A DNA stretch of 64,000 nucleotides from a virus (Duplodnaviria > Heunggongvirae > Uroviricota > Caudoviricetes), in the IMG/VR virus record IMGVR_UViG_3300029828_000006, positions 27,904-91,903 of that record; one strand, given 5' to 3'. Shown here in pieces: positions 9,223-54,389 of the stretch. Position 1 is the stretch's first letter, and every line of letters starts with the position of its first letter. A program made the translations under genes and the position numbers. The notes beneath the pieces were generated by a model. It was not told the DNA's origin. It saw nothing but the letters and a program-made list of their open reading frames with translations, and ran no database searches.

Positions 9223-9811
9223 GTGTCTTAGCTACTTCCTGAGACAAGGCAGCTTTAACATTACCCGTATCTTGCATTACTTTGTCTGACTTGCTCTGGA
9301 GTTTAGACAGTTTGTCGTTAGCATTAGCGATATCTTCACGGAGTGCATCACGTGATTCTTTCGCTTCAGCTAATTTCTGAGCGTTAGATTTAACTCCCTG
9401 CCGCTTCTTATTTCCGTCATCAATATTTTTTGCTGCACGAGCAAGTTTTCGAGCTAATGACTTCTGGAAAGAAGTTGCTCCACGATTAAATAAAGCCGCA
9501 AGAGATTGCCCCAAAGCCGACATTGTTTTTACTGGCTTGAACGGTACTGTTTTACCATTCAGTTTGATCCCAGATATATCACCGGTATCGTTAACCTGAA
9601 CTTCCATTGTCTGTTCATCAATACCAATAAGGGTAAACGTGCGCGTCATGATCCCATCTTTCTTCCTGCCATTACTTGCAGGGATCACCCTCGCTATCTT
9701 GTAACCACCTTTGCTGATTTCTTTGACGAGTTTTGCCAGCCCCTTTTCGTTTAACTCATCATAATTAAGAAGAACATAATTATTCTTATTTGACATCCCA
9801 GTCTCCTTCAC
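9176..9811 (-). CDS. hypothetical basic coiled-coil phage protein
   Basis: 211 aa, overlaps neighbours by 26-47 bp. Confidence 0.3.
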   Translation of the reverse strand: MKETGMSNKNNYVLLNYDELNEKGLAKLVKEISKGGYKIARVIPASNGRKKDGIMTRTFTLIGIDEQTMEVQVNDTGDISGIKLNGKTVPFKPVKTMSALGQSLAALFNRGATSFQKSLARKLARAAKNIDDGNKKRQGVKSNAQKLAEAKESRDALREDIANANDKLSKLQSKSDKVMQDTGNVKAALSQEVAKTRALKEEIARLEDEHD

Positions 9812-10232
9812 GCTTTTCGATCGTAAACTGGCGCTCTATGCAGTCATTGATAGGGAAAATGCGATAAAGCGGATTCAGTCGGCAGTTACCGTTAGTCAAT
9901 GTGACTTTCAGATCCCACTTCGTTGGCTCAAGATATTTCGTATCGATGAGCAAATACTCTTCTCTCTCACCGCGTTTTGAGGCGTCAACTGGTCGCGTTT
10001 TCCCTGAAATAACCACAGATGGATTTTTCAGGTCTTGCAACCAATATTCGATTTGAGCATTGCTGACCCAGCTTCGCTTAACACGTAGCGAAACAGGAAA
10101 TGCTATAGCTGATTCTTTCACTACAGCGTCACCAATACTCAAAATCTCAACACTCTTGCGACGAAAAATGAAACGGTCAATGATGGCAACAAATGCCATG
10201 ATAAAAATGAAATAATTTCCAAAGTTACCCAT
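9786..10232 (-). CDS. membrane-anchored protein (lysis-associated candidate, LydB position)
   Basis: 148 aa, single N-terminal TM helix (NYFIFIMAFVAIIDRFIF) then soluble domain; directly follows holin-like gene. Confidence 0.3.
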   Translation of the reverse strand: MGNFGNYFIFIMAFVAIIDRFIFRRKSVEILSIGDAVVKESAIAFPVSLRVKRSWVSNAQIEYWLQDLKNPSVVISGKTRPVDASKRGEREEYLLIDTKYLEPTKWDLKVTLTNGNCRLNPLYRIFPINDCIERQFTIEKREGDWDVK

Positions 10233-10558
10233 TATTTCTCTCCACCTTTTCCCCCATTCGCTATTACGCTTAAGAGATTCAAGACGTTACTAGCTCTGGA
10301 CTTCAAGCCCTGTAAAATTTCACTACCGTTGTTACTGGCAATCAGAACAACGCAGAAAATGATGCCTTCAGGCCATTCTTGGCTAACCGCCACCCCATAC
10401 CCCGCAAGCCCGGCTGTTACCGCAGTAAACAATTCACTCGCAAGATTGAGCAGGGACGCAGAAATGCGCCCGTCTCTAACTCCGAGAAGGAATACGCCGG
10501 TTCCACTTAGTAGGGATGTTATGACTACTACAGCCAGATTTTCATAATCTGCAAACAT
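10232..10558 (-). CDS. small multi-TM membrane protein, holin-like
   Basis: 108 aa, 3 predicted TM segments, first gene of operon; P1 lydA-like position. Confidence 0.4.
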   Translation of the reverse strand: MFADYENLAVVVITSLLSGTGVFLLGVRDGRISASLLNLASELFTAVTAGLAGYGVAVSQEWPEGIIFCVVLIASNNGSEILQGLKSRASNVLNLLSVIANGGKGGEK

Positions 10559-10634
10559 ACCCCTCCAGAAATAACATCTAATGCGCCACTAACTTAGTCA
10601 GTTTGTTATTTCCTTACAGGACATCTTCTAAAAT

Positions 10635-10660
10635 CTCCCCCCTTAACATACTAGGGGGGA
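10635..10660. promoter_or_regulatory. hairpin (C7/G7 stem) overlapping invertase ribosome-binding region
   Basis: tcccccc-ttaacatacta-gggggga ending 4 nt before invertase ATG at 10664. Confidence 0.4.
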
Positions 10661-10663
10661 CAT

Positions 10664-11224
10664 ATGCTTATTGGATACATTCGCGTATCAACTAATGACC
10701 AAAACACCGCTTTACAACGAAACGCCCTTGAAAGCGCAGGATGTGAGCTAATTTTTGAGGATAAGGCGAGCGGCAAAAAGGCTGAACGCCCAGGGTTAAA
10801 AAAGGTTCTGCGTATTATTTCCAGAGGTGACACCCTGGTCGTATGGAAGTTAGATCGTCTTGGGCGCAGCATGCGTCACTTGGTTGTGCTGGTGGAAGAG
10901 CTGCGTGACAGAGGCATTAACTTCCGAAGTCTCACTGACTCCATCGACACCAGTACACCAATGGGGCGCTTTTTCTTTCACGTAATGGGGGCGCTGGCAG
11001 AAATGGAACGTGAGCTTATCGTTGAACGTACACGCGCTGGACTTGATGCAGCTCGCGCAGAAGGTCGTATAGGTGGGCGTCGGCCTAAATACAAAGAAGA
11101 AACATGGCAGCAAATGCGGCGATTGCTGGAGAAGGGCATCCCCCGTAAGCAGGTTGCAATCATCTATGATGTGGCTGTTTCCACGCTTTATAAGAAGTTT
11201 CCGGCGTCATCATTTCAATCCTAA
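10664..11224 (+). CDS. cin: serine-recombinase DNA invertase (Cin/Gin/Pin/Hin family)
   Basis: 186 aa, MLIGYIRVSTNDQNT...VVWKLDRLGRS...GRFFFHVMGALAEMERELI; stop codon abuts left crossover site of an invertible tail-fibre segment. Confidence 0.9.
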   Translation: MLIGYIRVSTNDQNTALQRNALESAGCELIFEDKASGKKAERPGLKKVLRIISRGDTLVVWKLDRLGRSMRHLVVLVEELRDRGINFRSLTDSIDTSTPMGRFFFHVMGALAEMERELIVERTRAGLDAARAEGRIGGRRPKYKEETWQQMRRLLEKGIPRKQVAIIYDVAVSTLYKKFPASSFQS

Positions 11225-11241
11225 ACCTTGGTTTAAGAGAA
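11216..11241. promoter_or_regulatory. left crossover site (cix/gix-like, 12-2-12)
   Basis: caatcctaaacc TT ggtttaagagaa: dyad half-sites around 2-bp core; start of inverted homology with 15521-15546. Confidence 0.7.
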
Positions 11242-13407: not shown

Positions 13408-13427
13408 AAGGCCCGATATCGGGCCTT
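13408..13427. terminator. bidirectional terminator hairpin at centre of invertible segment
   Basis: aaggcccgatatcgggcctt between convergent tfa genes. Confidence 0.55.
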
Positions 13428-54108: not shown

Positions 54109-54323
54109 CAGTGCACCTCCACGCAGTTCATTGGCAGATTCCAGTAATTGAGGATCTCCATCGCATCAAGAGTGAAGCGAGCAGCAAAAATGCAGGGTTC
54201 TTCGGGAAGGTATGAGCGCGCCTCTGCTTCGGTAGCAGCCATTACGCAGATATAAAGGTGTTTTTGGCAGGAATAGAAACGCCAGATAAATTCAGAATGA
54301 GTTGGGGTAGGGATAGTAGCCAT
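54108..54323 (-). CDS. Icd-like small protein (second copy)
   Basis: 71 aa, FIWRF motif, strong SD AAGGAGG. Confidence 0.5.
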   Translation of the reverse strand: MATIPTPTHSEFIWRFYSCQKHLYICVMAATEAEARSYLPEEPCIFAARFTLDAMEILNYWNLPMNCVEVH

Positions 54324-54389
54324 ATTGGCAGCCTCCTTTGACTAAGTTAAGGAGCTACCGCGTGAGGTTCCAATCTCAATGGCGGTAGC

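What the first reader, a model, noticed from the sequence alone, without database searches (positions are those of the whole stretch)
10635..10666. G7/C7 hairpin sequestering the invertase ribosome-binding site
The only purine-rich stretch before the invertase ATG (GGGGGGA) forms the 3' arm of a perfect 7-bp C/G hairpin (10635-10660). This could hold invertase translation low or make it condition-dependent, which would set the switching rate of the fibre inversion.
Basis: seen in the sequence. Interest (0 to 1): 0.4.

Follow-up and report, generated by a model that had tools for sequence, protein, structure and literature searches.

The report
Hairpin masking the cin invertase ribosome site
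A strong stem-loop just upstream of the tail-fibre invertase gene of a D6/P1-like phage would hide the gene's ribosome-binding site in any transcript carrying both arms, a familiar way to keep a recombinase scarce; it is not conserved in relatives, and whether the gene's own transcript includes it is unknown.

Summary
The window is a phage D6-like P1 relative, and 10664-11224 is cin, the C-segment DNA invertase. The hairpin is real, but the runs are C6 and G6, not C7/G7. The stem is UCCCCCC(U)/(A)GGGGGGA, 7-8 bp with a 9-nt loop, at -15.7 kcal/mol. Its 3' arm is a strong Shine-Dalgarno (SD) sequence.

If both arms are transcribed, exposing the SD and AUG costs about 16 kcal/mol. That is the strongest SD occlusion among 74 gene starts in the window. 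It is too stable to be a thermosensor (15.4 kcal/mol at 42 C).

- The only promoter-like element kept in every relative with an intact cin is a -10 hexamer at 10629-10634. It matches P1's annotated P1cin -10 and puts +1 near 10641, inside the C run, where the cost falls to 3-5 kcal/mol.
- The stem is not conserved. Relatives with intact cin have CCTTCC, CCCTCC, C5, G5 or G7 (-6 to -17 kcal/mol). No compensatory change was seen. Only 2 of 5 cin leader types have an above-chance hairpin.

Best reading: a lineage-specific RBS-occluding stem-loop like the one in IS200 tnpA. It may silence only transcripts that start upstream. This is a new member of a known kind, of low to moderate interest. Mapping the cin 5' end would settle it.

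The parts
10636..10643 (+). 5' arm of the hairpin, UCCCCCCU (C6 = 10637-10642)
   Evidence: Sequence; MFE structure
10644..10652 (+). Loop, UAACAUACU (9 nt). D6 has A at 10652, which allows a ninth pair and a 7-nt loop.
10653..10660 (+). 3' arm, AGGGGGGA. It contains the Shine-Dalgarno sequence (G6, 10654-10659), 4 nt before the ATG.
   Evidence: SD:anti-SD duplex -10.8 kcal/mol
10664..11224 (+). cin, the serine DNA invertase of the C segment (186 aa)
   Evidence: ORF; 96% nucleotide identity to P1 cin and 98.9% to the D6 region; Pfam Resolvase + HTH_7
10629..10634 (+). -10-like hexamer TAAAAT, 2 nt upstream of the 5' arm. Candidate proximal cin promoter; predicted +1 about 10640-10643.
   Evidence: Same hexamer as P1's annotated P1cin -10. 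TA..AT is kept in all intact-cin leaders and broken only in two pseudogene lineages. PWM score in the top 0.2%, but with no -35 at 16-18 bp.
10521..10548 (+). Upstream sigma-70-like site, ATGACT-16-CATAAT, inside the 5' end of lydA (opposite strand). Predicted +1 about 10555, which would transcribe the whole hairpin.
   Evidence: The -10 is CGTAAT in L008 and L009, which have intact cin, so it is not conserved.
10603..10613 (.). Block TTGTTATTTCC, shared by all five cin leader types including P1 and P7. It overlaps P1's annotated -35. Function unknown.
10587..10598 (-). Palindromic ACTAACTTAGT box. By position it is the counterpart of the -22 element of P1's late promoter LPdar, which drives lydA/lydB (context only).
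   Evidence: Compared with the P1 annotation; inference
11219..11238 (+). cixL crossover site overlapping the 3' end of cin (context)
   Evidence: D6 annotation transferred by coordinates

Best explanation
The inverted repeat encodes a cis-acting stem-loop that occludes the ribosome-binding site in the cin leader. On any + strand transcript that starts at or upstream of 10636, the C-rich arm is made first and pairs with the G6 Shine-Dalgarno as soon as it emerges. The 30S subunit is then largely shut out and little Cin invertase is made. The same protein in P1 and P7 is kept low by a very weak SD; this lineage has a strong SD that is masked instead.

The element is lineage-specific and evolutionarily labile, not a conserved regulator, and it is not a temperature switch.

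Shown: the structure, its stability, its overlap with the SD, the dependence of occlusion on the 5' end, and its variability in relatives. Inferred: that both arms are transcribed, and that translation is reduced in vivo.

Which transcripts are affected is unresolved. I put about 0.35 on most cin mRNA carrying the hairpin (promoter at 10521-10548 or elsewhere upstream). I put about 0.25 on only upstream-initiated or read-through RNA carrying it, with transcripts from the TAAAAT box starting inside the C run and escaping. The stated confidence is the sum of these two cases.
For: - The 8-bp stem folds at -15.7 kcal/mol, z -3.4, 0 of 200 shuffles.
- The 3' arm is the SD, which pairs with the anti-SD at -10.8 kcal/mol against -2.7 (P1) and -2.4 (P7).
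- The SD..AUG opening cost is 16-17.7 kcal/mol for 5' ends at or before 10636.
- It is the most stable SD-covering hairpin of 74 gene starts and third of 45 annotated D6 genes.
- Two of the window's seven G/C runs of six or more form it.
- P1's non-homologous cin leader also has a 9-bp hairpin containing its annotated SD (-10 kcal/mol, z -2.5).
- Hairpins tend to be weaker where cin is a pseudogene (median -8.3 against -14.6, p = 0.05, lineages not independent).
- A validated precedent exists for a recombinase gene: the IS200 tnpA SD, AAGGGGGU, is sequestered by a 5'UTR stem-loop (PMC4513863).
Against: - No TSS data were found. The only promoter-like element conserved with intact cin (TAAAAT, 10629-10634) predicts +1 inside the 5' arm, leaving an opening cost of only 2.7-7.6 kcal/mol.
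- No compensatory (two-sided) change was seen in 20 leader variants.
- 5 of 8 variable columns among intact-cin D6-type leaders lie in the arms.
- Intact-cin relatives range from -6.3 to -16.8 kcal/mol.
- The P7, fergusonii-type and marmotae-type leaders have no above-chance hairpin.
- Invertase leaders as a class are only slightly more occluded than background genes (9.3 against 7.9 kcal/mol).
- Hairpins of this stability are common in the window.
Confidence: 0.6

Rival explanations
1. Incidental complementarity. The C run is just a C-rich discriminator or initially transcribed region of the proximal cin promoter, and the G run is just a strong SD. They happen to be complementary, or were made perfect by quasi-palindrome template-switch mutation. 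Transcripts carrying both arms are too rare to matter.
For: - The arms are the most variable part of the leader in relatives with intact cin.
- No compensatory changes were seen.
- A hairpin is absent or at chance level in 3 of 5 leader types.
- Equally stable hairpins occur about once per kb, and 2 of 44 other D6 genes are as occluded.
- Any pyrimidine tract pairs with any SD: in the arm-swap test chimeras were nearly as stable as natives.
Against: - Two of only seven G/C runs of six or more in 64 kb sit 11 nt apart in complementary orientation exactly at an RBS.
- 0 of 200 shuffles are as stable.
- A reasonable upstream promoter-like site exists that would transcribe both arms.
- There is a weak association between hairpin strength and an intact cin.
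Confidence: 0.25
2. An intrinsic terminator on the - strand. Read on the opposite strand, the stem is followed by GAUUUUAG. It would stop transcripts running antisense through cin (tail-fibre operon read-through, or a short antisense RNA starting inside cin) before they reach the lydA/dar late operon.
For: - The - strand hairpin is as stable or more stable (-16.9 kcal/mol).
- Four U follow 2 nt after the stem.
- A weak antisense promoter-like site, TATCCT at 10763-10758, exists.
- IS200 and IS10 use antisense RNAs.
Against: - The terminator scan does not call it (9-nt loop, fewer than 5 T in 8).
- The U-tract is the complement of the -10-like hexamer and varies as UUCU, UCCU or UAUU in relatives.
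- The tail-fibre operon already has a canonical - strand terminator directly after U (13409-13426 followed by AAUUUUUA).
- The antisense promoter candidates are poor.
Confidence: 0.06
3. An RNA thermometer or other condition-responsive switch. The hairpin would melt or be opened under some condition, making inversion condition-dependent.
For: The SD lies in a hairpin, as in ROSE and fourU thermometers. Weaker natural variants (-6 to -10 kcal/mol) fall in a range that could respond.
Against: - Six consecutive G-C pairs; the opening cost is 16.4 kcal/mol at 37 C, 15.4 at 42 C and still 8 at 80 C.
- There are no mismatches or non-canonical pairs of the kind thermometers use.
- No Rfam family matches.
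- No candidate trans-activator was identified.
Confidence: 0.03

Closest known systems
IS200 tnpA 5'UTR stem-loop (PMC4513863)
   Same: It is a DNA recombinase gene that must be expressed at very low level. It has a near-consensus G-rich SD (AAGGGGGU there, GGGGGGA here) buried in a cis stem-loop that blocks 30S binding.
   Different: In IS200 the TSS is mapped upstream of the stem and the effect has been shown by toeprinting and stem mutations. IS200 also has an antisense sRNA (art200) and Hfq control. Here nothing has been tested, the stem is a short 8-bp local hairpin, and the TSS may lie inside it.
IS10/IS50 protection from outside transcription ('fold-back inhibition'; Davis, Simons and Kleckner 1985; Krebs and Reznikoff 1986; cited from my own knowledge, papers not read here)
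   Same: The geometry matches: a candidate -10 abuts the 5' arm. The gene's own transcript would then lack the arm and be translatable, while transcripts entering from upstream would fold back over the RBS.
   Different: There are no TSS data here. The upstream source of + strand transcription is only a predicted promoter inside lydA, and no same-strand operon reads into cin (the flanking genes are on the other strand).
P1 cin leader (annotated P1cin promoter and 'potential' SD, AF234172)
   Same: It is the same gene in the same position. An identical TAAAAT hexamer lies 29-38 nt before the ATG. A 9-bp hairpin (GCUUGCUAU/AUAGUGAGC, -10 kcal/mol) contains the SD.
   Different: The sequences are not alignable upstream of 10662. 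P1 has lydC between LPdar and cin. P1's SD is weak (GAG), and its stem starts 6 nt after the hexamer, so it would lie within the transcript.
Phage Mu com/mom translational hairpin (from my own knowledge)
   Same: It is a phage gene next to an invertible tail-fibre segment whose translation start is sequestered in a stem-loop.
   Different: mom is activated when the Com protein binds and opens the structure. No Com-like factor or binding motif was found here, and the target gene is different.

Membership tests
SD-sequestering cis stem-loop (translational repression by mRNA structure) | A stable local stem-loop in which one arm contains the Shine-Dalgarno sequence | tested here: met
   8 bp, -15.7 kcal/mol; 3' arm = G6 SD
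SD-sequestering cis stem-loop (translational repression by mRNA structure) | Both arms are present in the mRNA (TSS upstream of the 5' arm) | tested here: inconclusive
   There are two promoter-like candidates. One gives +1 at about 10555 (both arms included). The other gives +1 at about 10641 (inside the arm). No experimental TSS was found.
SD-sequestering cis stem-loop (translational repression by mRNA structure) | Pairing is maintained in homologues (conservation or compensatory change) | tested here: not met
   No two-sided change in 20 leader variants. Stems weaken to -6 kcal/mol with cin still intact. Only 2 of 5 leader types have an above-chance hairpin.
SD-sequestering cis stem-loop (translational repression by mRNA structure) | Disrupting the stem raises translation | not testable with these tools
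   Needs reporter fusions or toeprinting
Fold-back inhibition of read-through transcripts (IS10/IS50 type) | The native TSS lies within or downstream of the 5' arm | tested here: inconclusive
   A conserved TA..AT hexamer lies 2 nt upstream of the arm and predicts +1 at 10640-10643. This is a prediction only, with a poor -35.
Fold-back inhibition of read-through transcripts (IS10/IS50 type) | Transcription enters from upstream on the same strand | tested here: inconclusive
   The only source found is a predicted promoter at 10521-10548. The neighbouring genes lydA, lydB and darA are on the opposite strand.
RNA thermometer | The structure melts across the physiological range (about 30-42 C) | tested here: not met
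   Opening cost 17.9 kcal/mol at 30 C, 16.4 at 37 C and 15.4 at 42 C
Intrinsic (rho-independent) terminator, - strand | A G+C-rich stem followed immediately by a U-rich tract, at the end of a transcription unit | tested here: not met
   The stem is present, but the tail is GAUUUUAG (4 U) and the scan does not call it. The tail is variable in relatives. The tail-fibre operon ends at its own terminator, 13409-13426.
Serine DNA invertase of the Cin/Gin/Hin/Pin group (identity of the downstream gene) | Resolvase catalytic domain plus C-terminal HTH, next to an invertible tail-fibre segment bounded by cix sites | tested here: met
   Pfam PF00239 and PF02796; 96% identity to P1 cin; cixL, S'/U' and U/S arrangement
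Any curated RNA family (Rfam 15) | A match to a covariance model | tested here: not met
   No hit at E <= 1 in 10300-11000

The most novel reading that the evidence does not exclude
The hairpin is a promoter-embedded gate. The proximal cin promoter (TAAAAT, 10629-10634) fires inside the C run, so the exact start nucleotide decides whether an mRNA is translatable. Each extra C at the 5' end adds about 3 kcal/mol of SD occlusion, over a range of about 13 kcal/mol. Any transcript entering from upstream is silenced, which would be IS10-style fold-back protection applied to a phage DNA invertase. Length and C-to-T polymorphism of the two homopolymer arms (C5-C8, G4-G7, CCTTCC, CCCTCC) would then be a natural tuning knob for tail-fibre switching rate among P1/D6-like plasmid prophages. 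RNA polymerase slippage at the C tract could add further control.
Probability: 0.2. Interest if true: 0.5.

Novelty: new member of a known kind. Interest (0 to 1): 0.25.

Why it matters
Cin sets how often a P1/D6-type phage flips its tail-fibre genes, and so how it hedges its host range. How the invertase is kept scarce is poorly documented. If the stem works as predicted, D6-type phages reach low Cin by masking a strong ribosome site, while P1 and P7 use a weak site. That would be two routes to the same end in near-identical genes. The stem's natural variants would offer a ready-made series for testing how invertase dose sets switching rate. If the transcript starts inside the stem, it would extend a transposon-style safeguard against read-through to phage invertases. 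None of this changes current understanding of translational control.

Tried and rejected
1. Covariation in the Gin/Pin-type invertase leaders. By eye the arms looked compensatory (ATTCC/GGAAT, TTTCA/TGAAA and others). RNAalifold found only an invariant GGCAU/AUGCU helix. An alignment-free arm-swap test gave native -6.85 against chimera -5.89 kcal/mol, with 38 of 2000 permutations reaching the native mean. That is too weak to claim, because any pyrimidine arm pairs with any SD.

2. SD occlusion as a family-wide trait of invertase leaders. The mean is 9.3 kcal/mol against 7.9 for annotated D6 genes, p = 0.016 on non-independent sequences. Not convincing.

3. G.U wobble as a way to tell the strands apart (CCUUCC/GGGGGG). 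The - strand energies of the variants are similar, so it does not discriminate.

4. Thermometer, - strand terminator, antisense-RNA terminator and Rfam families. All negative or weak.

5. The exact 15-mer scans CAGTTTGTTATTTCC. A gapped pattern anchored on the cin start worked better.

6. Literature. The P1 genome paper (PMC523184) and the cin sequence paper (PMC555351) are not held. No cin TSS mapping or P1/D6 primary transcriptome was found. The papers on D6-like plasmids do not discuss the leader.

7. Orthology of the TAAAAT box between P1/P7 and D6-type leaders. It could not be established by alignment. Only the shared hexamer and its similar distance to the ATG support it.

Full report
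**What the window is.** The region is 98.9% identical to Escherichia phage D6, a P1 relative. The layout is:
- lydB 9786-10232 (-) and lydA 10232-10558 (-);
- a 105-bp intergenic region;
- cin 10664-11224 (+), a 186-aa protein with Pfam Resolvase and HTH_7 domains;
- cixL at the 3' end of cin, then Sv'/U' (+) and U/S (-).

P1 and P7 match only from 10662 onward, the cin start. Upstream they carry an extra gene, lydC, between the late promoter LPdar and cin. The hairpin therefore lies in a D6-type leader that cannot be aligned with P1's.

**The observation.** The C run is 10637-10642 and the G run is 10654-10659, six bases each, not seven. T10643-A10653 adds an eighth pair around a 9-nt loop. 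ViennaRNA gives -15.7 kcal/mol, z = -3.4, and 0 of 200 dinucleotide shuffles are as stable. The G run is the only purine-rich stretch before the ATG, and it pairs with the 16S anti-SD at -10.8 kcal/mol.

**Is it more than chance?** Stability alone is not unusual. About 0.8-0.9% of 41-nt windows reach -15.7 kcal/mol, which is 64-73 regions per strand. Position is what stands out:
- Among 74 crude gene starts, cin's is the most stable hairpin that actually covers the SD.
- Against annotated D6 CDS starts, the cost of opening -13..+3 is 15.7 kcal/mol, compared with a background of 7.9 +/- 3.5. That ranks third of 45.
- Only seven runs of six or more G or C exist in 64 kb, and two of them form this hairpin.

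I conclude the feature is real and probably not accidental. The statistics are moderate, not overwhelming.

**Consequence if transcribed.** For 5' ends at or before 10636, exposing the SD and AUG costs 16.1-17.7 kcal/mol. Established work on SD-occluding structures, including IS200 tnpA where it has been shown experimentally (PMC4513863), says this represses initiation strongly. The cost is 15.4 kcal/mol at 42 C, so a thermosensor role is not credible.

P1 and P7 cin have very weak SDs (-2.7 and -2.4 kcal/mol). P1's unrelated leader also folds into a 9-bp hairpin containing its annotated SD (-10 kcal/mol, z -2.5). A strong but masked SD here and a weak SD there look like two routes to a scarce invertase. 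This is inference.

**The weak point: where the mRNA starts.** The opening cost falls as the 5' end moves into the C run:

| 5' end | Opening cost (kcal/mol) |
|---|---|
| 10638 | 13.8 |
| 10639 | 10.8 |
| 10640 | 7.6 |
| 10641 | 4.8 |
| 10642 | 2.7 |

A rough sigma-70 weight matrix finds two + strand candidates, both in the top 0.2% of scores (the first was also found):
- **ATGACT-16-CATAAT at 10521-10548.** It predicts +1 at about 10555, so the whole hairpin would be transcribed. Its -10 is CGTAAT in L008 and L009, which keep an intact cin, so it is not conserved.
- **TAAAAT at 10629-10634.** It has no usable -35 and predicts +1 at about 10641, inside the C run.

The second candidate is the same hexamer as P1's annotated (predicted) P1cin -10. 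TA..AT is kept in every intact-cin leader: TAAAAT, TAGAAT or TAATAT. It survives even where a 15-nt deletion has reshaped the leader. It loses a key base only in two pseudogene lineages, TAATAC in L219 and TAAAT in L223.

If that box is the working promoter, cin's own transcript lacks most of the 5' arm. Only RNA arriving from upstream would be silenced, which is the logic described for IS10 and IS50 (from my own knowledge). I found no experimental TSS. The two key P1 papers are not in the library.

**Conservation.** I collected 20 or more distinct D6-type leaders from plasmids, IMG/VR and metagenomes. Among those with intact cin:

| Arms | Energy (kcal/mol) |
|---|---|
| C6/G6 | -15.7 to -16.4 |
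| C6/G7 | -16.8 |
| C5/G6 | -13.5 |
| CCTTCC/G6 | -10.6 |
| CCCTCC/G5(A) | about -9.5 |
| CCTTCC/G5 | -6.3 |

- No two-sided compensatory change occurs.
- Five of the eight variable columns lie in the arms, which make up 16 of the 68 nt.
- Run-length differences may partly be assembly errors.
- The fergusonii/Shigella-type and marmotae-type leaders have only chance-level hairpins (z -0.15 and +0.68). P7 has none.
- Hairpins are somewhat weaker where cin is a pseudogene (median -8.3 against -14.6 kcal/mol, p = 0.05, lineages not independent).

The stem is therefore labile and lineage-specific, not a conserved regulator.

**Alternatives.**
- *A - strand terminator.* The stem followed by GAUUUUAG is not called by the scan. 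Its U-tract is just the complement of the -10-like box and varies in relatives. The tail-fibre operon already ends at a canonical terminator at 13409-13426.
- *An antisense RNA ending at the hairpin.* The antisense promoter candidates are poor.
- *A known RNA family.* No Rfam family matches.
- *A family-wide trait of invertase leaders.* SD occlusion as a general trait, and apparent covariation in Gin/Pin-type leaders, did not hold up.

**Verdict.** The most likely reading (0.6) is an RBS-occluding stem-loop that keeps Cin translation low on transcripts carrying both arms. That splits into about 0.35 for most cin mRNA being affected and about 0.25 for only upstream-initiated RNA being affected. 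An incidental or mutation-generated palindrome remains plausible (0.25).

The element works like the IS200 tnpA leader. Membership in the class of SD-sequestering leaders is met on structure, inconclusive on transcription, and not met on conservation. It is a new member of a known kind. The accessible literature does not describe it. Interest is low to moderate. Mapping the 5' end, together with stem-mutant translational fusions, would settle it.

Noticed in passing
L004-L007, L214, L219, L223, L226, L312, L313 (counterparts of window 10600-10850): Many P1/D6-like plasmid prophages carry a truncated or frameshifted cin together with a decayed leader. In the L006 type, cin is cut after about 45 nt and a different recombinase gene sits on the opposite strand.
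   Followed up: partly
window 54323-54363 (- strand): Another gene start has its own SD-occluding hairpin, GCUCCUU-AACUUAGUCA-AAGGAGGC (-14.8 kcal/mol). The loop 10-mer AACTTAGTCA is identical to 10591-10600, next to the LPdar-like box. There are only two copies in the window, which is not above chance.
   Followed up: partly
window 13409-13426: The palindrome GGCCCGATATCGGGCC lies between U' and U. On the - strand it is followed by AAUUUUUA, which makes a canonical terminator for the S-U tail-fibre operon.
   Followed up: partly
L250-L307 positions about 660-706; Mu L309 2540-2595: Gin/Pin-type invertase genes (about 83% identical to Cin) and Mu gin share an invariant TGGCAT(C/G)AT about 30 nt before the start codon. 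This looks like an extended -10. Its GGCAU is complementary to the AUGCU at the start codon. A T-rich loop and a pyrimidine tract facing the SD follow it.
   Followed up: partly
window 10603-10613: The block TTGT(T/G)ATTTCC is conserved in all five cin leader types, including P1 and P7, although the surrounding sequence is not alignable. It overlaps P1's annotated -35 of P1cin, but its spacing to the -10-like box ranges from 9 to 21 bp. Function unknown.
   Followed up: no
window 10559-10663 compared with P1 L002 1027-1502: This phage, like D6, lacks lydC, the putative second holin gene that P1 and P7 carry between the late promoter LPdar and cin. The lydA-cin intergenic region is only 105 bp.
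   Followed up: no
window 10637-10642 and 10654-10659, and their counterparts in L220, L310-L313, L062, L213: The lengths of the two homopolymer arms differ among isolates (C5-C8, G4-G7). This could be real slippage polymorphism or homopolymer assembly error.
   Followed up: partly
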